Below are positions 3,116 to 49,411 of a DNA stretch of 64,000 nucleotides, piece after piece. The notes below the pieces were generated by a model. It saw nothing but the letters and a program-made list of their open reading frames with translations, was not told where the DNA came from and did not search any database. Position 1 is the stretch's first letter. Every line of letters begins with the position of its first letter. Origin of the DNA: Leucoraja erinacea (lineage: Eukaryota); assembly GCF_028641065.1 (NCBI RefSeq), contig NC_073400.1, forward strand, positions 31,992,001 through 32,056,000, written 5' to 3'. Position numbers and translations under genes: made by a program.

Positions 3116-3625
3116 TCAATCCATTAACAGCCAGGTCTCTTCTTCACACTTCCCATAATTATAAGTGGTCCAACGGCAGGAATATATCGCCTCATCGTCC
3201 TCTTGTGCCTGTGTAAGGACCAACGAGGCGTCCCGATGCATGATGACGTTTTGATACACGAACCACCGATGGACATCAGACCTTTGATATTTCGCAAAGG
3301 TCCTAAATGTGGCAATGGAAACACCATCTTTACTCCACGAAACAGAGCCCAGTGCACCGTAATCTTTGGATATTTTACAGTACAGCGTTACAGAATTACC
3401 CGGAGATGCAATGATCACACTATGTCTAGTTAGGAGAGGCTGACCTAGCCTGCCCTGGCAGTCTGGAAACCGATCTTCATTGACCTGCCGAGGCTCCCGT
3501 GCGTTCCACCCGGGCAAGTTTGCTTCCTCTCCCCATTCTCTGGAGATCGGACCTGTTCCAGTTGCGGAGACTTGCCACACCATCTCCACAAGGACCATGA
3601 ATCCTATCCATCTCTGCAGCCCCAT
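3116..3625 (-). CDS. Predicted secreted single V-set immunoglobulin-domain protein (169 aa, single coding exon)
   Basis: Acceptor ttcacccacag at 3630-3631, then good Kozak AACATGG and a hydrophobic leader MGLQRWIGFMVLVEMVWQVSA. V-set hallmarks: GNSVTLYC, VSWSK, DASLVL, EDDEAIYSC. Stop falls directly after the G strand, with no TM segment. Confidence 0.75.
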   Translation of the reverse strand: MGLQRWIGFMVLVEMVWQVSATGTGPISREWGEEANLPGWNAREPRQVNEDRFPDCQGRLGQPLLTRHSVIIASPGNSVTLYCKISKDYGALGSVSWSKDGVSIATFRTFAKYQRSDVHRWFVYQNVIMHRDASLVLTQAQEDDEAIYSCRWTTYNYGKCEEETWLLMD

Positions 3626-3759
3626 GTTCCTGTGGGTGAAACAATGGGTCACCTTATTGCAACTCAGTAGGATTCATGATGACATTCCCTGAAGCTGCTG
3701 CCACCACACTGGGCAATGTCGCTGTGCAGCTTCTACAGCTCCCGCCTGGTTTAGTTTAA

Positions 3760-4172
3760 GTTGCTTTGACCTGTCGTGGACCAACAACATTGAAGTGGCA
3801 GCCAAGGAGGCACACCAATGTATCTACTTCCTCAGAGACAGAGGAAATACGACAAGTCTCCAATGTCTCTTAGGACCTTCTACAGATGCACCACAGAGAG
3901 CAGGCTGTGGGGTTACATCACAATTTGGTTTGGGAACAGCTCTGAGCCCAAGATCACAAGAAATTGCAGAGTTGTGGATGGAGCCCAGTCCATCACACAG
4001 ACCACACTCCCCACCAGTTACTCCATCTACAACCAAAAAAATCAAAGACTTGTCCCACCCCGGTCATTCCTCCTTCTCCCTGGTCCTGTCTAGCAGAAGG
4101 TACAGAAGCTTGAAAGCGCGCACCACCAGACTCAGGAACAGCTTCTTCCCCTCTGCTATCAGGCTTCTGAAC
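3760..4172 (+). mobile_element. Rex/Babar- or L2-type LINE 3' RT fragment
   Basis: Degenerate 'YFLR...TFYRCTTES.LWGYIT.WFGN...[11 protein letters not shown]' peptide. Similar fragments at about 7935-8140, 10410-10680 (-), 19870-20370 and 63530-63780. Confidence 0.7.
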
Positions 4173-5029
4173 TGGGGGAACAGTGAACAGAGACAATCCC
4201 ACCCCCATCACTCACAGACACTTGAAGGATCCACAGGGTTGGTTACCAGCTCCGGAGTCTCCACACAGGGTGACGGGGTCGGTCTTGTTCTCATCTCCTG
4301 CCATCGCTCGCTCCTTTTATACCGACTCCCGGCTTCTCCTGCCCCTCATTGTCTGCCCTCACGTACATTCAACCAATCACTGCCTCCCACGGAGCATTGG
4401 CCGGAGTCAGCCGCGACCTCTCCACCCTCTGCCAAACGTGTCGTTGCATCAGCCGTTAACGTTTAACAAGAACAACGTCATCCCAGCTGCCAGCGGCCAA
4501 CCAGGCGCCCCATGATGCAATGACACGTTTAGCAGAAGGTGGAGAGGTCGCGGCTGACTCCAGCCAATATGTGGGACACGTTGTCAACTGTTGGGACAGC
4601 TTTGATGACCACACTCTCGTTAGTAATTAACGGCGGCTGACTAGCAACCACACGGAGACAAGTCTGGGCACCAACCTGTGGATGACAGTGTTTGCTTGAC
4701 ACCAGTTTGTATTGGGGTGGCACAGTGGTAGCATAGCAGTAGAGTTGCTGCCTCACAGCGCCAGAGACCCGGGTTCGATCCTGACTACGGGTGCTGCCAA
4801 CCCGTGACAACGGCCAGACAACGGCCAGGCAACGGTCATTCTTCACCTGGTTATATTGTAACGTTTCATTCTTAATTGTTAACTGTATATCGTGTTGTAA
4901 CTTGTGAGCAAGGCAACAAGGCAAATTCTTGTATGTATACATACTTGGCTAATAGCATTTATTCAATTCAATTCATAGCAACTGAAATTGCTGACATAAA
5001 TTGATAAACTGTTTAGGGGAATTTTGAAG

Positions 5030-5415: not shown

Positions 5416-5454
5416 TGATGCACATGAACAGATACAAAGTACGCTGTTATCTGT

Positions 5455-6970: not shown

Positions 6971-7218
6971 TTAAGGCCAGTTGCAACATTTACAGGATAA
7001 ATCGAAGACTAATCCAGTGGCACAGCTCTTCAGGTAGGTCCGACCATTGGCGCACTGGTAGAACTTGTTCTTGTCCTTGGGATCAGCGAAGGTACCGTTG
7101 GCTTTGCCCTTACAGAAGCCACTGCCTCCACCACCGCTGCTGCCACCGCCTCCACCACCACTAGGGGCATCAGTAGGTGGAACCGCCGGCGCCAATGTTG
7201 TCTTGGATGGGACGCAAG
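6971..7218 (-). CDS. chia: chia exon 11 (linker + CBM14)
   Basis: [13 protein letters not shown]...FYQC...[18 protein letters not shown]. Confidence 0.93.
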
Positions 7219-10200
7219 CTGCAAAGAAACACAGTTCGTTATAAGTTCATAAGCTCTCCTCAATTCATAGGAGAATTAGCCCATTGGGTTTACTCCACTA
7301 TTCAATCATGGCTGATCTATCACTCCCTCTCAACCCCATTCTCCTGCCTTCTCCCCATAAACCCTGACACCAGAACTAATCAAGAATCTGTCAATCTGAA
7401 ATACCCGTTGACTTGGCCTCCATATCCATCTTAGTTCATGTAGAAACAAGGAACAGCAGATGCAGGTCTACAAAGTGTGAATATCCCAGTCAATAGGATG
7501 ATGCCACTGAACCTCCCTCTCACCAACTCCTGAGCGGGGTCCTGACCTCCCATCCACCCCAGATGCTGGTCTATAAAAAGAGACACAATGTGCTGGAGTA
7601 ACAGTTGCTTGTTCCCTATACCCACTGTGGAAAACATAGCTACATACCTAGTCCTACCACTATCTGCCTCCACCACCACCCCTGGTAGCATGTTCCAGGC
7701 ACCCACCACCCTCTGTGTGAAAGACTTGTCCTGCACATCTCCATTACCTCCAGAGATGCCAAGGCCAGAGTGCAGAGTGTTGATGAGGGGGTAGGGTCCC
7801 TGGTGACAGAAGGCACCAGAGAAGTCATCCAGAGCCAGATCCCAGACCATAGCTCCTCCAAAGTTGTTCTTCTTCAGCCACGCAACCTGGAAGACACAGT
7901 TCACATCTTTACACCAACATCCCTCAGTCAATAATGGCTTCTACAATGCGCTGTAGAAAGCTTTCTATCGGGATTCATCACAGCACGGTTTGGGAATGGC
8001 TCCATCCGAAACACGCAAGAAATTGCAGCAAGTTGCTGACGCAGCCCAGACCGTCACACAAACCAACCTCCCTTCCGTTGACTCCATCTACACCTCACTC
8101 TGCCTCAGCAAGGCCACCCGTATAATCGAGGACCAGTCTCGCCCAAGCACCAGAGAAATAAAAACAGAAATTCCACGTTTCCTCGATGTGAATCATTTCA
8201 TGAGGGCAGCACGGTGGCGCAGCGGTAGAGCTGCTTTGCTGCCACACAGCGCCAGAGACCCGGTTTCGATCCTGACTACAGGTGCTGTCTGTATGGAGTT
8301 TGTACGTTCTCCATGCGACCTGCGTGGGCTTTCTCCGGGTGCTCAGGTTTCCTCCCACACTCCAAAGACATACAGGTTAGTAGATTAATTGTCTTCGGTA
8401 AAATTCCTGGTGTGTGTAGTACAGTGCCCAGTGTGTGGGGATCGCTGGTCGGCCCGGACTCGATGGGCCGAAGGGCCTGTTTCCAGCTGTACCTCTAAAC
8501 TATACTAAACTAAAGGTTACTCCCTGCCTTCCTCACACAGTCCCGCCCCAATGGAAATATATTAAATCCCTAGAGAACAAATGTCAGACCCAAATCAAAA
8601 ATGTCCATGTTTAAAGCACATTCTAAAGAGCATAGCATCAATTTTAACGGCGACTTAAACTTGTTTGAACTGCATAACAAAGCATGATCATCACTTAACA
8701 TCCAAGGGAAGGCACAGATCTAAGGCAAATGTGACTTACTTTATAAAATAGAAATAATCATTTTATTCATGTGATAGGAGCAGAATTAGGCCATTCGGCC
8801 CATCAAGTCTACTCCGCCATTCACTCTGCCATTCACTCTAGTCTACTCCGCCATCAAGTCTACTCCGCCATGGCTGATCTATCTCTCCCTCCTAACCCCA
8901 TTCTCCTCCCTTCTCCGCATAACCCATGACACGCGAACACCATGAATTTATGGTGAGCTGGAAATTTTATGCAGAATGTTAACGACAAAAGATTCTAAGG
9001 ATTTTGAAGCATAATTCTGGAGTTCACTGTTGGAAACTCTGCAGTAGATATTGAGATAAACGAGACCACGGTGGTTCACGCAGGAAGGGTGGAACATCGA
9101 TGGTCAGATGTACCTTGTCTCCGAAGCTCTTGACGTTGTCATAGCCGACCCATATTCCACTCTTGAAGGCGTACGGGGTGTCTTGTGGGGCGTTCCATTC
9201 GCTGGTGGCACCGTTCAGGAACCCGCAGATCTGCCCAGAGACGGAGATGTTAGGGACCAATCTTGTCGAGTTGGAAAAAAATCATGAGAGGAACCGATCA
9301 GGTAAACGCAAACGCAGAGACGGCGAATCGAGAACAAGAGGACATGGGTGAGGGAGAAAGATTTAATAGGAATGGTGCTGGCTTGAAGGGCCGAATGGCC
9401 TACTCCTGCACTTATTGTCTATTAAATCTGAGGGGTAACCATTTGACTCCAAGGGTGGTGGGTGGTGATAGTGACAAAGGCTGGAGGGGAACAGGAGACG
9501 AAATAGTGTCAGATACTGAGACGAGAGGGGAAGAGAGATGTGGAGAGAGGTGCAAAGAGAGGAGGAAAGAGGTGAGAGAGATATAGGTTAAGAGAAGGGA
9601 GAAAGACATGAAAGAGAAAGATAGAAAGAGGAGAGGAGAGAAAGATGTATAAAGAGCGATATATCCAGAAAGTGGAGGAGAGATATAAAGCCGGAGGGAG
9701 GGATGTGGTGAGAAGGAGATAGTGGGGAGGGCAAAGAGGAAGGGGAGGATAGAAGGGAAATGGGGATCTCTTGAGGAGGGGAACGGAGAACATGGGTGTG
9801 CGATGTTTCGGGTGGAGATCCTTCCTCAGGCTGCAGCACCTTGTGTCCATCTATGTTGTGTGTGGTTATTCAGTATTGGATTGGAAGATAACATTGAGTA
9901 AAGAGCCACGCGGTTGGATTGGTCGGTAGGTACAGTACCTCATAGTAGGCCAGGAAGCCGGCTTGGCGGGTGAATTTGCCGGCTGGACCAGCGCCTCCTG
10001 CTGGGGCACCCACAGCCGTGCTGGACGAGGTCAGTCTGAATGTGTGTCCATAGGTGGGGAAACCCACATTCAACTTCTCCACTGGAGCCCCCTTGCTCTT
10101 CCAGTAGTTCATGGCGTATTCCTGCAGGGACACAGTTGGCATCAAAGGCTCATGTTTACGTTTAGGTTTATTATTATCACCTGTACCGAGGCACAGTGAA

Positions 10201-13200
10201 AAGCCCAAACAGATCAGATAATACCGTACATGAATACAATCAAATCAAACTCGGGTACAATAGGTAGAACAAAGGGGAAGATACAGAGTGTAGAATATAG
10301 TTCTCAGCATCGTAGTGCATCAGTTCCAGAGACAAAGTCCAATGTCCGCAATGGGGTAGAGGTGAATCGGACAGCACCCTAGCCTATGGAAGGACCGTTC
10401 AGAAGCCTGATAGCAGAGCGGAAGGAGCTGTTCCTGAGTCTGGTGGTGCGCGCTTTCAAGCTTCTGTACCTTCTGCTAGACAGGACCAGGGAGAAGGAGA
10501 AATGACTGGGGTGGGACAAGTCTTTGTTCTGTTGGCTGCTTTTCTGAGGAAGCGTGAAGTGTAGATGGAGCTAATGGTGGGGAGTGTGGTCTGTGTGATG
10601 GACTGGGCTCCATCCACAACTCTGCAATTTCTTGTGGTCTTGGGCTCAGAGCTGTTCCCAAACCTAGTTGTGATTCAACTCCACAGTCTGCTCCCCGTGG
10701 TGTATGGAACAGTTATATGGACTTGACAAAATGGGTTTATTTATTCGGAGAGAGGAGTTGAAAAAGTTGAGCAGGATTTATTTTTCTTGAGCACTTACCA
10801 CATTGAAGTAGAGGTTGGTTGTATCCTGGTTATTAGGCAGGGGATAGAGGGGGCTGTTCTCTCCAGTAACGTGGCTCCAGGGACCATAGAAATCGTAGGT
10901 CATCACGTTGAAGAAGTCAACTACCCTGCAAGAGAGGAGACGGGTCACCCTGATACTCCATGCACCAAATTAACATCAGAATGCAGAACAGTACAACACA
11001 GGAACAGGCCCTTCTGCCCACAATGTCCGTGCCAAACATGACGGCAAGATACACTCATCTCCTCCGTCTACACGTGATCCATATCCCTCCATTCCTTGTA
11101 TATCTACAAGCCTCTTAAACACCACTATCGTATCTGCCTCCACCACCACCACCCCTGGCAGCGCGTTCCTGGCACCCACCACTATCTCTGTAAAAAAAAA
11201 CATGCACATCTCCTTTAAACTTGAACATGATGCCAAGTCCATCACTTATCTACCTGCATATCACCAACATCCCTCCATGCCTGGCATGATCATGTGCCTA
11301 TCTAAAGGTCTTTTAAATGCCACTAAGATATCCGTTTCAACCACCACCTCAGCAGGTTCTGACTGTCTACACTATCTATGCCTCTAGTGATTTTATAAAT
11401 TTCTATCAAGTCTCTCCTCAACCTCTGACGTTCCAGAGGAAACAATGTAAATTTGTCCAACCTCTCCCTGTAGCTAATCCCCTCTAATCCAGGCAGCGCT
11501 CTGGTAACTCTCCTCTGAACCGTCTCTAAAGCCTCCACATGCTTCCTGTAATGGAGACGACCAGACCTGCACGCAATGCTCTAAATGCCTCCTGGCTAAA
11601 GACCTACAGAGCTTCAAGTTGGCTTCCTGACTCTCACACTCAATGCCCCGACTGATGAAGGCATTGAATGCATTAGGGTTGTGGATGGATCTCAATCACC
11701 GTGCTGGAAGCTCCCACCATTGAAATTGTGGAGCCATGAAAAACTAGTTCAAATACGACGTCAAACTCGCTAAACGCCCACAGGAAAAAGTTGGGTTTCT
11801 TTGCATGTGGAAGGACACTCACTGGCCGAGCTGAGGAACCTCGTAGCCAGTATCGATGTTGTTCTTCCCACCAGCAACGGCAGCCGAGAGCAGCAGTCGT
11901 GGCTTTCCTGCGCTTTTCCCTTCGGCCTCGAAGGCAGCCATCAGCTCCTGTGGGTCAGAGAGATCGAGGGCTCCTTTAGCAAGAGGTCAAGTCTAGTCTT
12001 AGGAAGGGTCCCGACCCGAAACATCGCCTATCCTCTTTCCTCAGAGATGCTGCCTGACCCGCTGAGTCACTCCAACACTTTGTGTCAATTTCAATTTTAG
12101 TTTAGTTTAGTCTAGAGTAACTCAGCGGGTCAGGCAGCATCTGTGGAGAACATGGATAGGTGACGTTTCACAGAGTGCTGGAGTAACTCAGCGGGTCAGG
12201 CAGCATCTGTGGAGAACATGGATAGGTGACGTTTCACAGAGTGCTGGAGTAACTCAGCGGGTGCAGCAGCATCTATGGAGCTAAGGAAATAGGCAACGTT
12301 TTGGGCCAAAACCCTTCCGGGTTTCGCCCCGAAACGTTGCCTATTTCCAGAAGGGTTTCGGCCCGAAACGTTGCCTATTTCCTTAGCTCCATAGATGCTG
12401 CTGCACCATAACTCAGCGGGTCAGGCAGCATCTGTGGAGAACATGGATAGGTGACGTTTCACAGAGTGCTGGAGAACTCAGCGGGTCAGGCAGCATCTGT
12501 GGAGATAAAGGATAGGTTTGACCTGAGTTTGGCCCATTTATTTTAAAGAAACTCATAGTGAGATGTACTTGACCGAACCTGAGCCAGGACAGTGTAGAGA
12601 TGCTTGTCAACGGGAGGACTTCCTCGAGATCCAGGATATTCCCAGTCGATGTCCAGACCGTCAAAGCCGTACCCTCTCAGGAAGGCGATGACTGACTTGA
12701 TGAAGATTTGCCGAGTTCCTGATGAGGCGACCATCGCGGTGAATCTGCAGGAGGGATGGATGTGGGGAGAGGAGTTAGAAATTAAATGGGCCGGAGACAC
12801 AAGGAACTGTAGTAACGGCCGCTGTACTCAGTGACCCAGTGAATCTGCTGTTATATCCTATCGTGTACAGATTCACCCTCGCCTTCATTAAATGTTCGTG
12901 ATAAAAAAATTACTCCTTTCTCCTGCTATTATCCCAAGTTTCATGTGAAATTATTATATCTGAAAATGACATTTAGTTCAGAGATACGGCATGGAAACAT
13001 GCCCTTCGGCCCCCCCAGTCTGCACCGACCAGCGATCCCCGCTCACTAACACTATGCTACACACACAAGGGACAATTTACATTTATAATAAGCCAATTAA
13101 CCTACAAATTTGTACGTCTTTGGAGTGTGGGAGCAAACTGAAGATCTCTGAGAAAACCCAGGTCACAGGGAGAACATACAAACTCCGTACAGACAGCGCC

Positions 13201-16200
13201 CATAGTCAGGATCGAACCTGGGTCTCTGTTGCTGTAAGCGCTGTAAGGCGGCAACTCTACCGCTGTGCCACACACTATTGAAAGGATTCTTTCGTAAAAT
13301 TATGTTCTTTTACTGTTTGGCAATCAATATTCTATATTGTTCAAATTGCAAACTGCGCTGTTTAATAATACTACTGAAACAGTTCACTGTAAAATTATCC
13401 CCTCAATATTTATCTCTGTGTATATCATTACCAAACACACCCACTGTTCACGTCAGACACATGAAACTGCAGGTGCCAGTTTACTAAAAGAAAAGACACA
13501 AAGCGCTGGAGTAAATCAGCGGGTCAGGCAGCATCTCTAGAGAACATGGATAGGTGACGATTCGGGTCAAGCCCCTTCTTCAGGCTGAGTTACTGAAGAG
13601 TTACTCCAGCACTTTGTGTCTTTCAATATTAATTCCATATCACAGTCAATTGGAAAATAACTTTTTTTAATCTAATGCTAACGTGAAAAGTTTCCATCTT
13701 ACTTCTGGGTGCCAAAGTTCCAGCCTCCAATGGACAGCAGAGTCTTGAGGTTTGCATTCCTTAAAAAATGGACAAAATGTGGTTTTAGAATGATGTTTAG
13801 AACAACAAAACATTTTCAGAACTGCTCAGGAACTTCTGTTTTTTTCGCCCCTTTGGTGTTACGTTTAGTTGAGGGGATTTGCCTTAGTCTGGATCTCAAG
13901 GGGGTCACAGAAAACGAGGTGCAAGTTCATGCAACAAGCAAGGCTTCATAAGCAATGGGCCAGTCTCACTATGTGGGCTGAAGGGCCTATTTCCTCAATG
14001 ATTTTGGTGAATGTCCAATATGTCCAATAGCTTTCTCCTGAATATCCCCCTAAACCAAGTCACCTTTCAGACAGGGGAGGTGGATGAGATGAGAAAACCT
14101 TCAACAAATGGATGTGTAACAGGGTCATGTCAAAGACCCCGCTGACCATCGATCACCCGTTCACACCAGTGCTATTTCATCCCACTTTCTCATCCACTCC
14201 CTATGCACTTGGGGCAAATTGTAGAGGCCAATTAATCTAGAAACCCTTTGGAATGTGGGAGAAAACCGGTAATCCAGAGAAAACCCTCACGGTCTTATGG
14301 CGAACATGCAAACTCCACACAAACAGTGCCTGTGGCGTCGCGAGGCAGTGGCTCTACCCGCTGCGCCACTGTGCTGCCCGGTACTTACAACAGATGGAAT
14401 CTTGCCACATACTCTTCCAAACGATAATAAACTAAACTAAACTAAATTAACTGTGGAATATGGATTTGGGGAATATCCAATACAGTGACTGGTTAGCACA
14501 CAACAAAAACCTTTCACTGTACCTCTGTACATGTGACAATGAACTAAACTGGACAATGTAAACATCGCAACAATGCCCGGCATTTGAGAAACAAGGTTAG
14601 TATTTATTCAGCGACTGTACTTGTTCTTCAGGCTGTTGATCTCCTTGTAGAGTTTTGGGTCATTCCATTCGTAGGTGGCGATCTGGTTGCTCCTCATTCC
14701 AGCGAAGGCGTAGATGATGTGTGTGCAGAGGCAAGGGTCCACGCTCTGGGGCATGTATTTACCCTCTCCTGGTCTGTACTGTGCCCAGTTGGTGAAGTAA
14801 CATACCAGCCTGTAGGCAGAGCCTGGGCAAGGGAGAGACAGGGTGGTCAGGACAATGCCTCTGTGGCACTCACACAAAGCAAAGCAAAGCAAGGCTGCAA
14901 ATGCACAAAGACTCACCCAGTTGCAGGCAGGCCAGTAAAACCACCGCTGGAACAGAAAACAGAGAACAGCGTGTTAGGATTATGACAAACTGTAATAAAT
15001 CAGGGGTTACGGCTGAACAATGGTCGGCATGGACTCCGTGGGCCGAAGGGCCTTGTTTCCATACTGTATCTCAAAACTAAACTTTTCCTATCCCATGTAC
15101 CTGTCCAAATTTCTTTTAAATGTTATTAAATGTTAAATGTCAACAAAATAGAGAGCATACAGAGGAGATTTACTAGAATGTTGCCTGGGTTTCAGCAACT
15201 AAGTTACAGAGAAAGGTTGAACAAGTTAGGGCTTTATTCTTTGGAGCGCAGAAGGTTAAGGGGGGACTTGATAGAGGTTTTTAAAATGATCAGAGGGATA
15301 GACAGAGTTGACGTGGATAAGCTTTTCCCACTGAGAGTAGGGAAGATTCAAACAAGGGGACATGACTTGAGAATTAAGGGACTGAAGTTTAGGGGTAACA
15401 TGAGGGGGAACTTCTTTACTCAGAGAGTGGTGGCTGTGTGGAATGAGCTTCCAGTGAAGGTGGTGGAGGCAGGTTCGATTTTATCATTAAAAAATAAATT
15501 GGATAGTTATATGGACGGGAAGGGAATGGAGGGTTATGGTCTGAGCGCAGGTAGATGGGACTAGGGGAGAATATGTGTTCGACACGGACTAGAAGGGTCG
15601 AGATGGCCTGTTTCCGTGCTGTAAATTGTTATATGGTTATATGGTTATTATACTTGCCTCATCTACCTCCTCTGGCAGATCATTCCATATACTCACCACC
15701 CTCTGGGCAACAGGCTAGAGTCATAGTCATAGTCACACAGCGCAGAAACAGGCCCTTTGGCCCAATTTATCCATGCTGACCATCTAAGCTTGTGCCAGTT
15801 GCCCCTGGGTTCACCTTTAAATCTTTGCCCTCTCACCTTCAGTGCCAATGCCCCTGTAGTTTTAGACTCGCCTTCCCTGGAGAAAGGCAGAGACCATCCT
15901 TCATATCTCTGCCCCTCGTGACCTTCTAAACGTCTTAAGAAGTCAAACTTCAACCTCCATCACTCAGGGGGCTCCACTCCATTGCTAGTGTTGGGACTGA
16001 AGGCTTGGGAGCAGAAGGTGGGGACACGGGAGAGTAGGAACATCATCTCCACAGAGTTCCAGCAACCTTCAACTGAAGATGGACACAGAGTGCTGGAGTA
16101 ACTCAGCGGGTCAGGCAGCATTTATGGAGCTAAGGAAATAGGCAACGTTTCGGGCCGAAACCCTTCCGGCCCGAAATGTTGCCTATTTCCAGAAGGGTTT

Positions 16201-16589: not shown

Positions 16590-16624
16590 CTTGTTACTGT
16601 TGCTGACTAGACCTGAGCTGCCTC

Positions 16625-38600: not shown

Positions 38601-41600
38601 CTCAGCCATTTATCACAAGGCCAGAAGCTTTATGCATGAAGATTATGCTGACTACCTCCTTCCCAAACATATTTCATGTCAGGTTCACCGCCATGGTTTC
38701 CAGTAAAGAAACTCGCTTACTATTCATTACGTCTGCGATCGAGCTTCTGAGGAAAGCGGAGTTTGATGGTTTAGACCTGCACTGGGAGTTCCCCGGCTTT
38801 AACCGCAGCCCACACGAAGACAAGCAACGCTACACTGACTTGGTCCAGGTGAGTGTAGACTTGGTTTATACTCTCTAGAATTTAGAAGATTGAGAGGGGA
38901 TCTTATAGAAACTTACAAAATTCTTAAGGGGTTGGACAGGCTAGATGCAGGAAGATTGTTCCCGATGTTAGGGAAGTCCAGGACAAGGGGTCACAGCTTA
39001 AGGATAAAGGGGAAATCCTTTAAAACCGAGATGAGAAGAACTTTTTTCACACAGAGAGTGGTGAATCTCTGGAACTCTCTGCCACAGAGGGTAGTTGAGG
39101 CCAGTTCATTGGCTATATTTAAGAGGGAGTTAGATGTGGCCCTTGTGGCTAAGGGGATCAGGGATCAGGGGTATGGAGAGAAGGCAGGTACGGGATACTG
39201 AGTTGGATGATCAGCCATGATCATATTGAATGGCGGTGCAGGCTCGAAGGGCCGAATGGCCTACTCCTGCACCTAATTTCTATGTTTCTATGCGAGCTGA
39301 ACGCATCACAAATCTCGAGACACAAGGAACTTGTCTGGACAAAGTTTTTACACAGAGGGTGGTGGGTGCCTGCAACGTGCTGCCAGGGGTGGTGGTGGAG
39401 GCAGACACGGCAGTAACGTTCAATAAAGAATCTGGAGAGAAACACAAAGTGCTGGAGTAACTCAGAGGGACAGGCAGCATCTGTGGAGGGAACGGACAGC
39501 CGACATTTCGGGTCGCCACCCAGAAGTGAGGTTGTAAAACGTTCAATTCATGACAGGCACATGGATATGCTGGGAATGGTGGGATATGGATCACGTTCAG
39601 GCAGAGATTAGTTTAACTTGGTATAGTGTCGGCACTGAAATACTGATAGATTTCCAAATGGAATCGGGATGCTAAAAGGTGGAGCAGTTTCCAAATGGAG
39701 CAAAGAGTTTCCATATACTCTTCACTCAGAGGGTGGTGGGCAAAGATTCTACAGCGAGCAAGGTCGACCACTCGACGAGAAAGACTGCAGTACCATCATG
39801 GGCAAATTCGTGGGTAATTTTCGGCCCCATTTCCGTAACCGGCTTCCGTCTCCGCACCAAAGATCCCGTAGCGGAGCAAAGATACTAGTGCGGAGATGGA
39901 AGCCGGTTACGGAAACATCCTCGTAAAAATAAAAGTTCTTTAGCAAAAATCTTCTCCTCATTTTCAGAATATTAATTTATTAACACAAACTGTTCCCCCG
40001 CAACGTTGATTACACTGCGAGTCGGGTCGGGTTACTGGAATGGATGAAAAAAAGGCCCACGTTCCGCTCCGTTGCATACTACATGTCAGCCCATTGCATT
40101 TAGCAGGAGTGGTCTATCTTGCTCCGCTATAGGATCATTGGTGGTGGGTATATGGAATGAGCTGCCAAAGGAGGTAGTTGAGGCAGGGACTATAACATTA
40201 TTTAAAAGATATTGGGAGAGGTACATGGCTAAAAAAGGTTTAGAGGGATGTGTGGGACCAGCGTAGATGGGGCATCTTAGTCGGCATGGGCAAGTTGGAC
40301 TGAAGGGCCTGTTTCCACAATGTCTGACCCTCCGACTCAGAGTGGAACTTCAGTGACAAACAGCAAAGAGTCACCACACTCCCGCCCCATCTAGCCTTCT
40401 GGTCAGCTGAAACAAAGCATCTTTCCCAAGACCTTCGGCCTCTCCTTCACCCTGGGGCTGGCGTATTCCACAGGAAATAATGCAACCTAGTCATAATCAT
40501 TAATGATGAGAAACATTCCTATACATTCGCTCCTCTGTCACCAGGCAACTGAGCCGGCCTCTCACCAGCTAGAGAGTGGTCCTGACCTCCCAACCTCCTC
40601 GTTAGAGACCTTTGAACGATCTTTAATCGGACTTTACCTTGCAGTAGATGTTATGCCCTTTATCCTGTATCTGTACACTGTGGACGGCTTGATTTTAATC
40701 ACCTATAGTCTAATCAATGATTGGATAGCACAGAAAAACCACTTCATTGTACCTCAGTAAACATGACCATAATAAACTAAACTAAACCGTTTGAAATCTC
40801 AATTCCATTTTGGAAATCCATCCTTATTCCCATCTGTATCTGTTCTTGTGTATGGCTTGATTGGATTCAGGTATAGTGTTATGTAATTCAATGGAATAGT
40901 AATGACCATGTTCTTGGTTCTTGGTTTCTTGGTCCTCCAAAATATTCCAAATGGAATTTAAACTGGAGGTGGTGAAGGGAGGGATTAAGCCAGAAAGGGT
41001 TATTGGGAAGAAAGAGCTACTTTAAATGTAGTTGCATCTGGTTGGGTAACTATAGTAGGGTGGAGATTATTCCATGCTTTAATTGTGCGGGGGAAGAACG
41101 AATTGCTGTATACATCTGTCTTTGTAGCTGGGATCACAAATTGGATCGAATGCCCTCGTCTTCTCCATGTTAATTATATATTCATTAAGTCCATGCCATT
41201 TGTAATCTGTCGTTCATCAGATATCATTGATGTCATCTGCCTGACAAACTCTTCACTATTTTATTAACTAATAGGAACTCCAGGAAGAATTTATAAAGGA
41301 ATCAAACGAGACCAACAAACCACGATTGCTACTTTCTGCTGTTGTAGCATCTGGAATAAGAAACATTCAAGCAGGTTATGAAATAGAGAAGATTTCAGAG
41401 TACGTTGGGAGTTTATTTTGTACCTGGTGCGGCTTTAAGCTTTGAAGATGTTCATCGTAAAACTGAAAACAATGAGGAAAGACACAAAGTGATGAGTAAA
41501 TCATCGGGTCAGGCAGCATCTCAAGAGAGCATGGATATGTTATGATTTGATCGAGACCCTTCCTCAGACTGATGAAGGATCCCATCCTGAAATGTCACCT

Positions 41601-44600
41601 ATCCATGTTCACCACAGATGCTGCCCGACCTGCTGAGTGGCTCCAACACTGTCCTTGGTAAACCAGCATCTTCAGTTCCTTGTTTCTACTGAAAATAATA
41701 ACCACGGCTTTGAATAAGGGCCAAGGCGTTACAAAACTATCCAATGAACACTTCAAACTGGGCAGGAGACACAAAGACATTTGCAACCAAGGAAAAATAA
41801 TTGAGAACAAACTTATAAACCACTATGGTGGCAATATTAGTAATGCAAGAGGAGAGGGAGTGATGTGGTGAAAGGACCAGTGAAATGGAGACACAAGGAA
41901 CTGAAGATGCTGCGATCTTGATTAAAACACAAAGTGCTGGAGGAAGTCAGCACATCAGGCAGCATCTGCGGAGGGAATAGATGTTTTGGGTCAAGACCCT
42001 TCTTCAAACCAGTGAACTGGTTGGGTTGGCAATAACTGGCTAGATGGATCTATACGGATCAATTACATTCTAATTTCCTATATAAGATTGACCAGAAGAG
42101 CCAAGGAACTGCAGAAGCTGGAATCTTGAAGGGTTTCGGCCCGAAACGTCGCCTATTTCCTTCGCTCCATAGATGCTGCTGCACCCGCTGAGTTTCTCCA
42201 ACAATTTTGTGTACCTTGGAGGAACTCAGTTGGACAGACAGCATCTGTGGAGGGAATGGGCAAGCAATGTTTTGGGTTGAGACAGTCTGAAGAACATCAT
42301 CTGTCCATTCCCTCTACAGATGCTGCCTGGCCCGCTGAGTGCCTCCAGCACTTATGTTTTGATGAAGATTGAAAGATAACCGTGGTAAATGCTATTGTCA
42401 ATCTTTGCAGCCGTGATATCAATGCCTGCAATAGCAACCTCCTTCAGTTCCATTCTCAACTAGCTGTTGTTTTTTGCAGACACATGGACTTCATCGGTGT
42501 GATGACCTACGAGTTCCATGGTCCATGGGATCTAAAAACTGGACCTAACAGTCCACTGTACAAGAGCTCTGATGACTATAATGATGACAGATACTTCAAT
42601 GTAGTATGTACTGACATCTTTCATGATTTCAATTTACATCATTTCTCCAGTTCTCTAAAGTTTAGTTTAGTTTAGAGATACAGCGTGGGAGGTACAGTGA
42701 GGCCCTTCAGATCGCTATGTCCATGCTTGACTGGCGATACGCTAGTTCTAGCCTACACACGAAGGACAATTAACCTACAAACCTGCACGTCTTTGGAATG
42801 TGGGAGAAAAATCACGCGGATAACATACGAACTCCATACAGACAGCACCCATAGTCAGGATAGAAACCGGGTCTCTGGTGCTGTCAGGCAGCAACTCTAT
42901 CGTTGCGCTACTTTGCCAATGTACATTTGGGAACACAGAGAATGAATGAATGAACGAATACTTTATTGCCACATGACAAGTCACAGTGAAGTTATTTGTT
43001 TCTGCATACGCCAGGTATGCAAAGAGTGGCCACATAAAGTGCAGCAACAAAGTTACAAAGTATCCCGCCCCACGCCCTCCTTTGTTCTCTCCAAAATGCT
43101 GCAGCTGGAATGTGTGGTGGGATCGGGACAAAGCCTGGAAAGTGATAGGTGGATACAGTTGAGGGGAGGCTTACTGGTTACTACATGGTTGGACAAAAGC
43201 CCAGAGATGAAAAGACAAAAAGTGTGAGATAAGGAGATAAGCATAGAAGAGTCAAGAATTGTGAAGCCAGAGGAAGAAATATATTTGAAATGGGAGAAGG
43301 AAGAGGAGAAATGGGTGTGTATCCAGGCGGGGCACAGGGAAGAGAGATGGGGTGGTGAAAAAAAAATGGAAGTGGGTGTTAGTAGACTAGTTACCTGAAA
43401 TTGGAAGTCAATATTCATTGCATAGGGTTGGAAGATACCCAGGCAAAGTCAGTTCCAATGTAATCCTTTCTCGTAGGAGTTTGCAACAAATTACTGGAAG
43501 CAAAATGGAGCTCCGGCAGAAAAGCTCTTGGTGGGATTCCCAACGTACGGACGGACATTTACTCTCTGCTCTGCCGACAACAAGCCTGGTTCTGCAGCGT
43601 GTGGACCTGGCACTCCGGGGAACTGCAGCAAAGCCGCTGGCATTTTAGCATACTCTGAGGTACGGTGTGACTGCAGTTTGACCCTACTATGAAAGGGAAT
43701 GCACTTCAATTATCACTACTAATTGCCACCATCACTAGCAATCGACACATTAGGCCCCTCTTGGAAATATGTAGATTTATCATAGCAACATCTGCATGAA
43801 AAGACATTTGGGCAGGTACATGGATAGGAGAGCTGGGAGGGATATGGGCCAAACGCGGGCAGGTGGGACTAGTGTAGTTACATAGAAACATAGAAATTAG
43901 GTGCAGGAGTAGGCCATTCGGCCCTTAGAGCCTGCACCGCCATTCAATATGATCATGGCTGATCATCCAACTCAGTATCCCGTACCTGCCTTCTCTCCAT
44001 ACCCTCTGATCCCCTTGGCCACAAGGGCCACATCTAACTCCCTCTTAAATATAGCCAATGAACTGGCCTCAACTACCCTCTGTGGCAGAGAGTTCCAGAG
44101 ATTCACCACTCTCTGTGTGAAAAAAGTTCTCCTCATCTCGTTATCCCTCATCATCTCCTCATCATCTAGTTGGGACATGTTGGTCGGTAAGTTGGGCCAA
44201 AAGGGCCTGTTTCCACTCTATGATTTACTTATCACAGTGACACAGTTCTCATAGAATCATAATTACACAGCACAGATACAGCCCTATCGGCCCAACCTGC
44301 CTATGCCAACCAGAAGCCCCATCTACGCCAATCCTGCCTGCCCGCCTTTGGCCCATATCCCAGTAAACATTTCCTATCCATGTACCTGTCCAAATGTCTT
44401 TGAAATCTTGTTATTGTGTCTGCCTCAACTACCTCCGCTAGCAATTCGTTTAATTTACCCACCACCCTGTGTGTGAACATTTCCAAACCCTCTATCTTCT
44501 TCCATAAACCAATTGTGTATCCAGGGAGCAAGCTCACTCTGGCTTCCATGCGATCTAACCTTATAAAATGGAAATGTTATCATTATAAATTTACCAAAAC

Positions 44601-47600
44601 AATTATCATAACAGTACCTCTCCACCATCGAAGGGATTGACAGGAGGCTTTGTCTCAAAAACGCAGTCAGCATCATCAGAGACTCTCATTTCAACCCTGC
44701 CGTCGGGAAGAAGGTACAGGAATCTGAAAAACCATGACCTCCAGGTTCAGGAACAGCTTCATCCCAACAAACATCAGGCTCTTGAACACTGCAACCACCG
44801 ACTAAACTAAGAATAACATATTGTCTTGGTTACAGGAAATTTTTGCTTTTGTTTTTACACAAATATTGCCATTTTTTAGTTTATTATGTTATCTATGAGT
44901 ACTGTGTTTACAGACCTGATATGTTTCTGCAAGTAAGAAGGGTCTCGGCCCGAAAGCATCACCTATCCATGTTCTATAGAGATGCTGCCTGACCTGTTGA
45001 GTTCCTCCAGCACTCTCTGAAACGTCACCTATCCATGTTCTCCACAGATGCTGCCGGACCCGCTGAGATACTCCAACAAGCTGTGTCATTTTTAGATTTT
45101 CATTGTTCCATTGTTGGTATTTATGAAAATTAAACACTCTCGAATCTTGAATGTCCAGTGAGGTGGAGATAAAATAACAACTATCAACAAAATAACCAGG
45201 AACATTTACATCCTCCCTGTGGAATTCTAGTAATATTAAAGAGGTCACCCCTCGTAATACATTTCCAAGGGGACACGGGCTGCATTTATGTAGCATCTTT
45301 CACTCACCGTGAAGCACTTTGAAGCAATGATAAAGGTCTTTGCTATTATTACAGGTGTGTGACTTTTTGAAAGGAGCCCATAAAGAATGGATTGAGGAAC
45401 AGGAGATTCCATACGCATACAAAGATGATGAGTGGGTTTCTTATGACAATTTGAGGAGCTTTGAGAAGAAGGTATGTATTTTTTTGGAACATTTATTGCA
45501 TGTTCCTGATATATCTTGTATAATGGATTGCAGATGTGCAGTTTACATGGTCTCCTTTTAACTGTAGGGAATTCTTCCAAGTGCTCCAGTTACATAGAAC
45601 AGCACAGCACCAGACCCTTCAGCCCACAATCTCCGTGCTGGACATACCAAGTTAAACTCTCTCTGCCTGCACATTATTTTCCTCCCGTATCTGAAAAATT
45701 GCTGCATGAGGTGGATTGGCCACTGTAGTTAGCTACCATATAGGTGGCAGGCAGGTGGTGATCAGTATGCATGTGTGACTCAATGGGCCAAATGGCCTTT
45801 TTTTTTGTATGTCATGAGAAAACCAAGAGAAAATGAGTCCAGCTGGGCTATATAATGTGCACGGCAGGTGGTTTCAGTTGGCCAAGATATTTATTTCTTG
45901 AGAATGTGAAACCAAAACTAGTTTCAATGTTGATAACATTAAGTAATTCTCAAGAAATATATCCATCATTCTTGGACTTGTGTTAAAAATTATAATTTAT
46001 CCAAATGTTTTTCTTTGCAAGGATTGAAAAAATGTGGCCATTTATTTATTGCTATACAGCAACGGGTGAACAGGTGAAACCCCTCACCTGTGTTCACCTA
46101 TCACCATGTTCTGTCCTGCCCCTCATCTTTTCCCACTTTTGTTCCTGCCCCCACCCCCCCGTGCAATATGTCCGATAAAGGGTGCCGAACCGATACGTCA
46201 CCAGAGATGCTGCCTGACCCGCTGAGTTACTCCAGCACTTTGTGTCTTTCTTTAGTACAAAACAAGCATTTGTAGTTCCTCGTTATTGCCCTTTAAGAGG
46301 ATGTTCCCACTGTGGCGGGAAGTTTTGTCTCAGGCAAGGTTAAACATAGTTGCAGAAGCAAGGTCAGAAGATGGAATGAAGATTGAGATCAACCATCCAC
46401 TCGCTGAACATGTGGACTGGACATGTTTGTTACAGAGCCTCGTGAATTCATGCTTAATTTATGTAGTTTATGTATAAATTATGTTTTGTGCATTGCCTGA
46501 ATCTATGTAACTGTGATGCTGCTGCAAGCAAGATTTTCATTGCACCTCTACCTCACTGTATTTGTATCAGTATTGGTTAAATCTATCTGATCTCCAGGCT
46601 ACCACCTAAACCAGTCCGATTTCTCGGCTACTAAACATTTTAACCGCCCCTCCTCCCATTCCCACACTGACATTTCTATCCTGGGCCTCCTCCATTGTCA
46701 GAGTGAGGCCCAGCACAAATTGGAGGAACACCACCTCATATTTCGCTTGGACAGCTTTCACTCCAGCGGTACGAACATTGACTTCTCTAACTTCAAGTAA
46801 CCTTGCTTTCCCTCTTTCTCCATCCCTCCCTCTTCCCAGTTCTCCGACAGTCTTACCGTCACCCATTCCTTCTCTCCAGAGATGCTGCCTGTCCCGCTGA
46901 GTTACCGCAGCATTTTGTGTGTATCATTGGTTTATTATTAGAGATATACAAAATGTAGGAGTAACTCAGCAGGACAGACAATATCTCTGGAGAGAAGGAA
47001 TGGGTGACGTTTCGGACGTGTACTGAGATGCAGAGAAAAGCTTTGTTAATGTGACAATAAGCAGAACGCGACTTGACTTTTTGATTTTAGAGATAACAGC
47101 ACGGAAACAGGCCCTTCCACTCACCGGTTCTGCGCTGACCAACGATCACCCCGTACACTAGCGCTATCCTACACACTAAGGACAATTTTACAATTTACAG
47201 AAGGCAATTAACCTACATCCTTGGAGTGAGGAAACCAGAGCAGCCAGAGAAATACCACACGGTCTCAGGGACAAGGTACAAACGCCTAACAAACAGCACC
47301 CGTGGTCAGGATCGATCCCAGCTCTCTGGTGCTGTAAAGCAGCAACTCTACCATTGCACCATTTTGCAGCCGTATTGCTTAGGTAATCGGACAGCAATCA
47401 AGAACAATGTTTCTCTGGCAGTTTGTTTTGTGGCTTTTGGGGCTAATGTAAGCATCTAGAAATAAGGAACTGCACGAACTCAAGGAAATGAACCTTGGTC
47501 TCCATGTGACCTTGCATGGGGTCGGTCTTGTAAATCTGCAGCTAAATATTAATTATTAAATAATCTGGATTAGCGAGATGATTTGCAATCTAGGATACCT

Positions 47601-49411
47601 ATTAAATGTTAAATTATTTTCAGGTGGAATGGTTGAAAAATAACAGCTTTGGGGGTGCAATGGTATGGACAATCGATATGGATGATTATGAAGGTACTTC
47701 CTGTAACCAAGGACAATTCCCCCTTATTAATAAACTCAAGGTTATGCTTTCGTCAGGTTCTGGACCCACGGATGAATCGTCAGGTAACTAAATTACATTT
47801 CCATTTGCATTTCAAATCAAGATATTTACATTTTCTATCAAATATTTAAGCATTAATTATGCCATTATAATCATGCTGTCTACAAAACCTTTCTGGGTAT
47901 GCAATTTTGAAAATAATGGACATTTAATAAAATTAAAGAGTTTATTATAAGTTAATGCAGGAGGGAGACATGAGATGGAAGATCACAGCACTACAGGTGC
48001 TTGGAGTTCTGAAACAATAACAGAAAGTCGTCGCAGATCAGCTAGCATTTCAGATCTTGCTCCATTTATCAGAATCAGGAAAGTGACAAAACAAGAGAGG
48101 AGACAAAATAAACTGCAGATGCTGGATTCTCGAGTAAGACAGAAAGTGCTGAAGGAACTCAGTGGGTCAGACAGCATCTGTGGGTCTGTCCATTCCCTCA
48201 ACAGATGCTGCCTGTCCCACTGAGTTACTCCCCAAAAAGGGAGAACACAAGTTAGTTTTCGGCAGAAGACAAGCTCGGAGAGAGATGGAAATATCTTGGC
48301 AACCAAATGAGTTAATACAGCAGTTTGAAGCACATTTTGCTTCCTTGTCAATATGGGCAATATCGTTAATAGGTAGGCTCTGGGATATGCACAACAAGCC
48401 CGGGGGAAGTGGGAGGTTCACTTGCTGTTCACGTTTAGAGATACAGCGTGGAAACAGACCCTTTGGCAAACAGAGTCCAAGCTGACCAGCGATCATCCTG
48501 TACACTAGTTCTGCGTCCTACACAATTAACCGACAAACCTGCATGTGGGAGGAAACTGGAGAGCCCAGAGGAACCTTAGTGTGAATGGGTGATCAGTGGT
48601 CGACATGGACTTGATGGGCCAAAGGGTCTGCTTCCATGATGGATCCTTCAATCAACAGTGGAAATCCCAAATCTTTTTTCCCCCACCTACATGTGGTAGT
48701 GTGGGAATTTCCTGCAGCTCCCGGAACACAGGTTCAGACCAGGAGAGGCATCTTGAAACATTATCATCAGTGAGCTTTGCACCATCATCATGCCGATAAT
48801 GGATTAAGGTTACGCGTGAAGATATCGGTGTAGAGTTAATCATGTTGCTGTTCGTACTTTCAGAGACAACACCACTGCCCATTTCTTCATCAGATTCACA
48901 GGTATCCGACCCCTGCCCCAATCTGGAATTTTGCGGAGGTAAAAAGGATGGTAACTATGCAGTGGAGTGTACTGCGGACAGTTTCTATCAGTGTACCAAC
49001 AACGACACCGAGATTCTAACGTGCTCCAGAGGTACTTCATACAACGCGGGCAGAGACAAATGTGTCTGGCCACCCAGGTTAATTCCAGCCATCAATTTGG
49101 CAGACAGTAACTTTTGCAAAACCAAGCTCGACGGTGCATATGCAATCCCGGTTCCCTCGTACTACAAATGCAAAGCTGGGCAGATGCGCGTGAAGAAGTG
49201 CTCCTCTGATCTACTCTACGATGCAGTCAGCAAGAAATGCATCAGTGCAAACACATTTAGTGACTACGATGTGTCCTTCTGCAGTAGTAATGAAGATGGG
49301 ACCTATCCCATCCTTGGCAGACCAAACAAATACTATCACTGCCTGAATAAGGATACCAATGTAGGGAGCTGTCCCAAGGGGAGCTTCTACAATAATTTCT
49401 GTAAATGCTGA
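32608..49411 (+). CDS. GH18 chitinase-like protein (CHIA paralog) with Asp-to-His catalytic substitution and three tandem CBM14-like domains; 11 coding exons, about 581 aa
   Basis: Exons 32608-32632, 33168-33200, 34013-34220, 36131-36187, 38683-38848, 41275-41399, 42480-42603, 43477-43659, 45355-45471, 47624-47783, 48864-49411. All are GT-AG with the same phases as the minus-strand chia and form a 1746-nt open frame. AATAAA at 49435-49440. Confidence 0.9.
33168..33200 (+). CDS. chitinase-like exon 2 (signal peptide)
   Basis: VGFLLLLQAYN; tttcag/gtaagc boundaries. Confidence 0.8.
34013..34220 (+). CDS. chitinase-like exon 3
   Basis: DYKIVCYYTNWAHKRGNCKFLPEDINPKLCTHLVYAFA. Confidence 0.92.
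36131..36187 (+). CDS. chitinase-like exon 4
   Basis: [18 protein letters not shown]; 57 nt. Confidence 0.92.
38683..38848 (+). CDS. chitinase-like exon 5 (variant motif FDGLDLHWEFP)
   Basis: 166 nt; CAC (His) at 38780-38782. Confidence 0.93.
38870..39291 (+). mobile_element. CR1 LINE 3' end inserted about 20 nt downstream of the exon 5 donor
   Basis: 'LRGDLIETYKILKGLDRLD...' to the TTTCTATG tail. Confidence 0.85.
39741..40140. mobile_element. hAT-type MITE (400 bp)
   Basis: 8-bp TSD GTGGTGGG at 39733-39740 and 40141-40148; imperfect ~33-bp TIRs CAAAGAT...GACCACTC / GAGTGGTC...ATCATTG; splits a CR1 fragment. Confidence 0.8.
41275..41399 (+). CDS. chitinase-like exon 6
   Basis: ELQEEFIKES...PRLLLSAVVASG...AGYEI; 125 nt. 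Confidence 0.9.
42480..42603 (+). CDS. chitinase-like exon 7
   Basis: HMDFIGVMTYEFHGPW...TGPNSPLY; 124 nt. Confidence 0.92.
43477..43659 (+). CDS. chitinase-like exon 8
   Basis: EFATNYWKQNGAPAEKLLVGFPTYGRTF...LAYSE; 183 nt. Confidence 0.92.
45355..45471 (+). CDS. chitinase-like exon 9
   Basis: VCDFLKG...PYAYKDDEWVSYDN; 117 nt. Confidence 0.92.
46590..46925 (+). mobile_element. Penelope-like element 3' end (GIY-YIG C-terminus)
   Basis: 'HFN...SHSHTDISILGLLHCQSEAQHKLEEHHLIFRLDSFHSSGTNIDFSNFK*'. Confidence 0.8.
47624..47783 (+). CDS. chitinase-like exon 10
   Basis: VEWLKNNSFGGAMVWTIDMDDY...; donor G|gtaact (weaker alternative donor after 47756). Confidence 0.88.
48864..49411 (+). CDS. chitinase-like exon 11: S/T linker + 3 CBM14-like repeats
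   Basis: Three FC..K/E.DG.Y...Y.C...C...Y...C units at 48929-49069, 49112-49240 and 49277-49408. Confidence 0.9.

What the first reader, a model, noticed from the sequence alone, without database searches (positions are those of the whole stretch)
3116..49411. Candidate chitin-barrier gene module: active chitinase, multi-CBM14 pseudo-chitinase and secreted V-Ig protein
Seen: three adjacent genes for predicted secreted proteins. They are a catalytically intact chitinase, a head-to-head paralog with an altered active site and three chitin-binding repeats, and a soluble single V-set Ig protein 3.3 kb downstream of the chitinase stop. Established: amphioxus and tunicate VCBPs fuse V-Ig domains to a CBM14 and act in chitin-rich gut mucus; endogenous chitin has been reported in fish gut and in chondrichthyan ampullae of Lorenzini gel. 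Inference (speculative): this locus could be a 'split' jawed-vertebrate analogue that builds, cross-links, remodels and surveys a chitin hydrogel.
Basis: inference. Interest (0 to 1): 0.75.

Follow-up and report, generated by a model that had tools for sequence, protein, structure and literature searches.

The report
Skate chitinase cluster with Ig array
In a skate genome, a standard chitin-digesting enzyme gene, a shark-and-ray variant with a changed active site, and one of ten highly divergent genes for small antibody-like proteins predicted to be secreted lie inside one large chitinase gene cluster; they likely work separately, and the proposed joint chitin barrier is untested.

Summary
The three genes are real, but the 'three-gene module' is an effect of where the window was cut. 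In little skate they lie in a ~440-kb cluster with 13 GH18 catalytic exons. The Ig gene is the edge member of a nested array of nine intact copies; a tenth lies elsewhere.

Gene 1 is an intact AMCase/CHIA-type chitinase.

Gene 2 is not shown to be a pseudo-enzyme. It keeps the catalytic Glu, with DxxDxHxE and YD-to-YE invariant in 37 of 37 sequences from 21 sharks and rays. Only CBM14-1 keeps the chitin-binding Trp; CBM14-3 leaves one predicted free Cys.

The Ig family is prepro + single V. Promoters are 99.6% identical, V exons 64%. Homologues turned up only in skates and an electric ray, where accession adjacency suggests the same linkage.

No V-CBM14 fusion exists. Co-expression and binding could not be tested. 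Best reading: positional linkage of a digestive chitinase, a retuned GH18 and an independent, diversifying secreted-Ig family. I found no description of either new family in ten searches. Split-VCBP module about 12%.

The parts
3116..3630 (-). Exon 2 of the secreted prepro-V-Ig gene (RefSeq LOC129708946). It encodes the whole 169-aa ORF from ATG 3625: signal-like N-terminus, propeptide ending REPR|QV, and a V domain with four Cys.
4048..4512 (-). Promoter, TATA (4321) and exon 1 (ends 4216) of the Ig gene; this 465-bp block is 97.9-100% identical in the other cluster copies.
6971..16589 (-). Intact AMCase/CHIA-type chitinase, 11 exons (16589-16565, 14946-14917, 14822-14621, 13759-13703, 12744-12579, 11947-11823, 10925-10799, 10121-9939, 9230-9114, 7886-7748, 7218-6971); TATA at 16631.
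12579..12744 (-). Catalytic exon of the chitinase, [11 protein letters not shown] (DxxDxDxE intact).
6971..7218 (-). Last exon of the chitinase: Gly/Ser linker and one canonical CBM14 ending CKCCNWP.
30309..30551 (+). Orphan, degenerate CBM14 reading frame (5 Cys, no terminal Trp) with a polyA signal downstream; likely a relic terminal exon of a broken GH18 gene.
32608..49411 (+). His-variant GH18 with three CBM14 (XP_055510971.1, 581 aa), 11 exons.
38683..38848 (+). Catalytic exon of the paralog, FDGLDLHWEFP: middle Asp changed to His, catalytic Glu kept.
42480..42603 (+). Exon 7 of the paralog, VMTYEF: the Asp of the YD motif changed to Glu.
48864..49411 (+). Last exon of the paralog, three CBM14. 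Only the first keeps the terminal Trp; the third ends at CKC with five Cys.

Best explanation
The window is a slice of a skate chitinase (GH18) gene cluster with a nested array of single-V Ig genes, and the three genes likely work separately: a likely stomach-type digestive chitinase, a conserved His-variant GH18 that is likely a slowed, chitin-anchored remodelling enzyme rather than a dead one, and one of ten divergent Ig proteins predicted to be secreted recognition molecules.

Shown: gene structures, cluster layout, motif conservation, and the mosaic of identity across Ig copies.

Inferred for the chitinase: it hydrolyses dietary chitin in the stomach, as CHIA does in fish and mammals.

Inferred for the paralog: Glu still protonates the glycosidic oxygen. 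His replaces the Asp that orients the acetamido group, which lowers hydrolysis, shifts the pH optimum and favours transglycosylation. CBM14-1 holds the enzyme on chitin; CBM14-2 and -3 act as spacers or protein-contact modules, and one unpaired Cys allows disulfide dimers or a tether to mucin.

Inferred for the Ig family: gene conversion keeps promoters and leaders nearly identical, so the copies are made together in one cell type. They are secreted and cut at PR|Q, releasing a set of ~125-aa V domains with different surfaces, likely for microbial or parasite ligands.

The linkage reflects insertion of the Ig gene into the cluster in a batoid ancestor, followed by block duplications that carried chitinase pieces along.
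For: 13 catalytic exons between 31.83 and 32.26 Mb with nine different motif strings. 17 Ig matches: 9 intact cluster ORFs, 1 dispersed, 1 frameshifted, 2 broken. A block duplicated at 97-99% identity carries half a chitinase and Ig copies together. The dispersed Ig copy carries a chitinase exon-10 remnant. Exon 8 of gene 1 scores best on AMCase (81 bits; CHIT1 59), and teleost CHIA genes are stomach-specific (PMC10234404, passages). LDLHWE and VM[TS]YEF are present in 37 of 37 paralog sequences; orthologues are 72-97% identical and form their own clade (99/100, stem 0.58). Middle-Asp mutants of GH18 give transglycosylases (PMC10536575, PMC5505975; passages). 26 of 37 sequences have 23 mature Cys, and 32 of 37 end in CKC, i.e. 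before CHIT1 Cys463 and Trp465. Ig copies: promoter+exon 1 99.6%, leader 96.5%, mid-intron 70%, V 64%; V dN/dS about 0.84 over 45 pairs. A spliced-form family member is held from a 900-nt Logan contig.
Against: No expression, enzyme or binding data for any of the genes. The paralog could be inactive: two catalytic-site residues are changed at once, and no His mutant was found in the papers seen. Apparent conserved linkage in three batoids also fits a functional module. Pooled close pairs lean to excess amino-acid change (80 of 92 changes non-synonymous, p 0.016), but the pairs were chosen after the fact and are not independent; only 13 of 45 pairs have dN>dS. Two copies lack PR|Q, and the Narcine site is not RxxR. 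An upstream in-frame ATG may add 31 residues before the signal.
Confidence: 0.55

Rival explanations
1. Split-VCBP module: the V proteins dock on the CBM14-rich paralog or on chitin and trap microbes in a chitin gel that the chitinase remodels.
For: Accession adjacency of Ig and paralog in Rhinoraja (XP_078276355 / 356-357) and Narcine (XP_069798310 / 312-314), on contigs of equal length. Diversified, predicted secreted V domains. VCBP-C tethers bacteria to chitin (PMC6109156, passages). Little skate makes chitin in its ampullae (10.1101/687301).
Against: No fusion, and only weak splice donors at the V exon ends (scores -7.5 to +0.6, against -2.2 to 8.1 for 20 real donors). Two of three CBM14s lack the binding Trp. 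The paralog is elasmobranch-wide, but the Ig family was listed only in batoids. The genes do not share a promoter. PMC6109156 has no occurrence of shark, skate or cartilaginous in its main text.
Confidence: 0.12
2. The paralog is a true chilectin: Asp-to-His and YD-to-YE abolish catalysis, and it only binds chitin (this rival concerns gene 2 alone).
For: Two substitutions at the -1 subsite relative to CHIT1 and AMCase. The same cluster holds Glu-less paralogs (DWQ, DWA, AWH), so loss of activity recurs here.
Against: The catalytic Glu, the Tyr of the YD motif, GGW and AMVW are all kept; Glu is present in 37 of 37 sequences. The other altered paralogs lose the Glu itself. Known chilectins typically lose the Glu (recalled).
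Confidence: 0.3
3. The Ig family is not immune but a diversified secreted ligand set for reproduction, skin or egg-case biology, sitting in the cluster by chance (this rival concerns the Ig genes alone).
For: A conserved leader with a fast-evolving mature part is also typical of reproductive and venom-type secreted families (recalled). The best structural matches are adhesion-type V domains (nectin, CAR). The copy number looks much higher in this skate than in the other batoids listed.
Against: No tissue data either way. Secreted multigene Ig receptors with innate roles exist in fish (SITR; PMC3031540, abstract).
Confidence: 0.2
4. The V domains are chitinase-binding regulators or inhibitors that co-duplicate with their CHIA targets.
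For: Ig copies are interleaved and co-duplicated with CHIA copies.
Against: The co-duplicated CHIA copies are about 96% alike in the exons compared, while V domains fall to about 30% identity; one target would not need that range.
Confidence: 0.06

Closest known systems
Acidic mammalian chitinase (CHIA/AMCase) and fish stomach chitinases
   Same: Gene 1 has a signal, GH18 with DxxDxDxE, a linker and CBM14; 11 exons; PTYGH motif; exon 8 is closest to AMCase in the PDB.
   Different: Asn instead of AMCase's His before the MTYD motif (role in acid activity recalled). Several near-identical tandem copies.
Vertebrate chilectins (CHI3L1, CHI3L2, Ym1, OVGP1) and fish CHIO
   Same: Gene 2 is a secreted GH18 paralog with an altered catalytic motif in a chitinase cluster.
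   Different: It keeps Glu, has His at the middle position and Glu in the YD motif, and carries three CBM14. It scores higher on AMCase/CHIT1 (466-469 bits) than on chilectins (381 or less). Its relation to CHIO was not tested.
Engineered hyper-transglycosylating GH18 mutants (SmChiA D313N, SmChiB D142N)
   Same: The same position of the motif is changed while Glu is kept.
   Different: His, not Asn/Ala; natural and fixed across 21 species; no assay.
VCBPs of amphioxus and Ciona
   Same: Secreted V-type Ig domains, a diversified multigene family, CBM14 encoded nearby.
   Different: One V, no CBM14 in the chain, a propeptide, and no shown gut expression or binding.
Fish innate Ig receptor families (skate MDIR, recalled; carp SITR; CD300-like)
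   Same: Tandem multigene V-type Ig families; SITR is soluble.
   Different: Single V encoded with its leader in one exon, a PR|Q propeptide and an extra Cys pair; best folds are nectin/CAR type; homologues were listed only in batoids.

Membership tests
VCBP | Two tandem V domains | tested here: not met
   One V domain, then a stop, in 10 of 10 intact copies
VCBP | C-terminal CBM14 in the same chain | tested here: not met
   Pfam finds only Ig families; no good donor before the stop
VCBP | Secreted (signal peptide, no membrane anchor) | tested here: met
   N-terminal hydrophobic stretch only, judged by hydropathy; no signal-peptide predictor was run
VCBP | Gut expression; binds bacteria and host chitin | not testable with these tools
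   Run tissues are coded; no binding assay
CHIA/AMCase (gene 1) | Intact DxxDxDxE, YD and AMVW motifs | tested here: met
CHIA/AMCase (gene 1) | Signal + GH18 + linker + six-Cys CBM14 with terminal Trp | tested here: met
CHIA/AMCase (gene 1) | Closer to AMCase than to CHIT1 | tested here: met
   Exon 8 only: 81/77 bits against 59; no tree with mammalian sequences
CHIA/AMCase (gene 1) | Stomach expression and acid activity | not testable with these tools
   No tissue-labelled RNA; Asn at the AMCase His position
Chilectin / pseudo-chitinase (gene 2) | Loss of the catalytic Glu | tested here: not met
   Glu kept in 37 of 37 sequences
Chilectin / pseudo-chitinase (gene 2) | No hydrolytic activity | not testable with these tools
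   Needs an assay; the structure model was unusable (pLDDT 44.5)
Canonical active GH18 (gene 2) | DxxDxDxE and YD | tested here: not met
   DxxDxHxE and YE in 37 of 37 sequences
Functional CBM14 (gene 2 repeats) | Trp equal to CHIT1 Trp465 | tested here: inconclusive
   Present in repeat 1, absent in repeats 2 and 3
Fish CHIO clade (gene 2) | Groups with teleost CHIO in a tree | not tested
   No teleost sequences were in hand for the tree
Antigen-receptor V segment or germline-joined VJ | Open-ended V, or a J motif (FGxG) followed by a C region | tested here: not met
   Complete G strand without FGxG, then a stop; RSS looked for by eye only
MDIR / CD300-type receptors | Transmembrane and cytoplasmic signalling parts | tested here: not met
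   None in the ORF; family definition recalled and from the abstract of PMC3031540
MDIR / CD300-type receptors | V domain closest to CD300 | tested here: inconclusive
   Top rows are nectin/CAR; many V domains score within a narrow Z range

The most novel reading that the evidence does not exclude
Sharks and rays evolved a natural chitin transglycosylase/cross-linker: a His-for-Asp GH18 with a chitin anchor and a free C-terminal Cys. Rays and skates added a germline repertoire of co-expressed secreted V domains inside the same cluster that dock on it or on the chitin gel. Together they would be a two-part VCBP analogue in jawed vertebrates.
Probability: 0.1. Interest if true: 0.82.

Novelty: new variant of a known kind. 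Interest (0 to 1): 0.5.

Why it matters
Two testable things come out even without the module. First, a GH18 lineage fixed across 21 sharks and rays carries a change at the position that enzyme engineers mutate to obtain transglycosylases. One recombinant assay would show whether a vertebrate has a natural chitin-extending or cross-linking enzyme, in animals known to make chitin gel. Second, skates carry an unannotated family of predicted secreted single-V proteins with homogenised promoters and leaders but V domains down to about 30% identity, a candidate non-rearranging recognition repertoire. If both act on the same chitin gel, the protochordate Ig-chitin barrier would have a jawed-vertebrate counterpart.

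Tried and rejected
RNA evidence: no RNA holder was listed for the Ig exon. Four RNA runs of coded tissue (1-25% of each read) gave depth of at most 1 over the Ig coding exon in one run and 0 in three; the other depth sat on repeats. This says nothing on expression. Chitinase and paralog expression were not measured, so co-expression stays open.

AlphaFold model of the paralog orthologue: pLDDT 44.5, unusable for the active site or disulfides.

Parent gene of the orphan CBM14: 0 of 34 candidates passed; no exon 9 or 10 was found upstream in the window or after the DWQ gene. A spliced V-CBM14 fusion from + strand Ig copies to this exon was considered: two copies have an in-phase GT at the stop, but the scores are weak (-3.2, -1.0) and the distance is about 100 kb or more; rejected.

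Shark Ig homologues: none among the 150 listed of 1,922 profile hits. The list is dominated by multi-Ig proteins, and single-domain hits under about 72 bits would not show, so absence is not established.

ESM Atlas gave only generic V-set clusters. One search is circular (the target is in the alignment) and is not used. The bacterial promoter scan is irrelevant. The gene at 55.7-62.4 kb had no Pfam hit at E 0.01 or better in 71 ORFs scanned. Earlier scan findings: none. Hussain and Wilson 2013 is not held. Ten paper searches listed no description of this locus, the His-variant or the Ig family. Most subscription papers are outside the library, and no supplements were read.
Full report
Source and scope. 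The V-Ig protein of the window is identical to a RefSeq protein of Leucoraja erinacea on a contig of the same length as G000:C24, so the window is little skate DNA, C24:31,992,001-32,056,000. I fetched 40 further 10-kb stretches to see the surroundings.

Observation. All three genes exist as described. The Ig ORF (3625-3116, -) encodes 169 aa with a V-set domain. It folds as a V domain with pLDDT 76-90 from residue 71 on, closest to nectin-1 D1 among many near-tied V domains, and has no membrane anchor. The chitinase (16589-6971, -) splices into an open frame with [17 protein letters not shown] and one canonical CBM14. The paralog (32608-49411, +) splices to XP_055510971.1 exactly. The two ATGs are 16 kb apart, and a degenerate orphan CBM14 exon lies between them.

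The window hides a large cluster. The catalytic exon has 13 matches in the genome, all on C24 between 31.83 and 32.26 Mb. Their motifs are DIDWE (5, one in a partial copy), DLDWE (2), ELDWE, DLVWE, DLHWE, DLDWQ, DLDWA and DLAWH. The Ig gene has 17 matches: nine intact ORFs within 31.90-32.00 Mb including the window gene, one intact copy at 12.89 Mb, one frameshifted and two broken copies. Ig and CHIA copies are interleaved. A block duplicated at 97-99% identity carries half a chitinase with Ig copies. The dispersed Ig copy took a chitinase exon-10 remnant with it. So the trio is one edge of a cluster reshaped by local duplication (shown); that the Ig gene first inserted into the cluster is inferred.

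Gene 1. Exon 8 scores 81 and 77 bits on mouse and human AMCase against 59 on CHIT1, and it has AMCase's PTYGH. CHIA genes are stomach-specific in the teleosts surveyed, whereas CHIO and chitin synthase are proposed to remodel gut chitin (PMC10234404, passages). A stomach chitinase was cloned from blue shark (cited in PMC4728518, passages). A digestive role is the likely reading; it is not tested here.

Gene 2. A search with its last exon returned 12 proteins: 11 elasmobranch orthologue entries and one unrelated cnidarian CBM14 protein; no chimaera was listed. With cluster members, 37 sequences (isoforms included) from 21 named sharks and rays plus one unnamed entry were examined. LDLHWE and VM[TS]YEF are in 37 of 37. 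Identity to the skate protein is 72-97%. In a tree of cluster exons it forms its own clade with a long stem, not a sister of gene 1. Against CHIT1 and AMCase, the middle Asp of DxDxE is His and the Asp of YD is Glu, but the catalytic Glu, the Tyr, GGW and AMVW remain. Mutating the middle Asp yields transglycosylating chitinases (PMC10536575 and PMC5505975, passages); those mutants are Asn-type, not His. I therefore read the protein as a retuned enzyme (about 0.6), with a true chilectin as the rival (about 0.3). Of the three CBM14s only the first keeps the Trp equal to CHIT1 Trp465, without which binding is lost (PMC4844120 and PMC5459812, passages). The third ends at the Cys equal to Cys462 and lacks Cys463, the partner of Cys450, leaving one predicted free thiol. 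32 of 37 sequences end in CKC and 26 of 37 have 23 mature Cys; the other 11 have 8-25, mostly short isoforms or truncated models. Disulfide dimers or tethering are inferred only; the structure model failed.

The Ig family. Each copy has a TATA box, a short exon 1 and one coding exon: signal-like leader, propeptide, PR|Q-type site and a V domain with four invariant Cys. Nine of 11 proteins examined have PR at that site; two do not. Among the nine cluster copies, mean identity is 99.6% in promoter and exon 1, 98% in the first 150 intron bases, 70% in mid-intron, 96.5% in the leader, 64% in the V part and 58% after the stop. Mean dS is 0.06 in the leader and 0.63 in V; V dN is 0.53; 13 of 45 pairs have dN above dS. 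This mosaic points to gene conversion that keeps expression and secretion signals uniform while V domains diverge (inferred). Evidence for positive selection is weak. RefSeq models add 31 residues from an upstream ATG 17 bases after the TATA box, and a 900-nt Logan contig encodes that spliced form. The extension is absent from the Rhinoraja model, and Narcine has an unrelated 28-residue one, so the conserved start is the second Met. Homologues: six more among 19 candidates (five Leucoraja, one Rhinoraja). A profile search of 1.84 billion representatives added one full-length hit, from Narcine (89.9 bits; next single domain 40.5). No shark member was listed, but weaker single-domain hits would be hidden.

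Linkage. In Rhinoraja the Ig is XP_078276355 and the paralog XP_078276356-357. In Narcine they are XP_069798310 and XP_069798312-314. Each pair sits on contigs of equal length. This suggests conserved linkage in three batoids; it is indirect, since accession order is not always positional. The window gene groups with the Rhinoraja gene (90/86).

Against the split-VCBP idea as stated. VCBPs have two V domains and a CBM14 in one chain, and tether bacteria to chitin (PMC4757023, abstract; PMC6109156, passages). The skate protein fails both architectural tests, and no splice route to a CBM14 is credible. Chitin in skate ampullae is supported (10.1101/687301, first of two parts read), but PMC6109156 does not mention cartilaginous fish in its main text. 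Co-expression and binding could not be tested. Failing membership does not exclude working like a VCBP; I put that at about 0.12.

Novelty. GH18 clusters and tandem Ig families are known kinds. Ten searches of the held library (listings only, apart from the papers named above and PMC3031540, abstract) showed no account of the His-variant lineage or this Ig family, which RefSeq calls uncharacterized. Hussain and Wilson 2013 could not be read, and no supplements were opened. MDIR features, the role of AMCase's His and the usual loss of Glu in chilectins are recalled, not from calls. The confidences of the rivals concern different genes and do not sum to one.

Verdict. Observation confirmed with corrections; interpretation partly supported; new variant of a known kind; interest 0.5.

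Noticed in passing
G000:C2:132,701,999-132,720,796 (L042-L044), - strand: Five CBM14 exons with Thr/Pro-rich stretches and no GH18 exon in the 30 kb fetched: a peritrophin/mucin-like gene, arguably a better chitin-barrier candidate than the window's genes.
   Followed up: partly
G000:C24:32,255,699-32,268,556 (L039-L040): GH18 gene with DLVWE (middle Asp to Val, Glu kept) and two CBM14 that both keep the terminal Trp.
   Followed up: partly
G000:C24:31,867,037-31,875,000 (L027-L026): Glu-to-Gln chilectin-like gene; exons 3-8 found, exons 9-11 not found nearby. The exon-10 remnant at 31.92 Mb and the orphan CBM14 in the window may be its scattered end.
   Followed up: partly
G000:C24:32,175,585 and 32,209,220 (L037, L038): Two further Glu-less GH18 paralogs (DLDWA, DLAWH), i.e. 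independent chilectins in skate.
   Followed up: no
G000:C24:12,888,395-12,890,722 (L025): Dispersed intact Ig copy 19 Mb away, with a broken chitinase exon 10 about 1.7 kb upstream.
   Followed up: partly
G000:C24:31,932,550-31,954,000 versus 31,964,040-31,986,400: Segmental duplication at 97-99% identity holding a partial CHIA copy and Ig genes; recent duplication or uncollapsed haplotype.
   Followed up: partly
window 55,719-62,400, - strand: Probable unidentified gene with a CpG-rich 5' end near 62.3 kb and an Arg/Ser-rich last exon; no Pfam hit.
   Followed up: partly
window 12,115-12,280; 16,252-16,414; 17,913-18,177; 20,436-20,615; 25,581-25,779: Dispersed arrays of a 66-bp repeat unit.
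   Followed up: no
window 52,844-52,925: Run of 82 G, possibly a sequencing artefact.
   Followed up: no
G000:C144:25,797-26,138 and G000:C32:3,038,762-3,039,103: Weak matches (E 5e-4, 3e-3) to the V part of the Narcine homologue; possible distant relatives.
   Followed up: no
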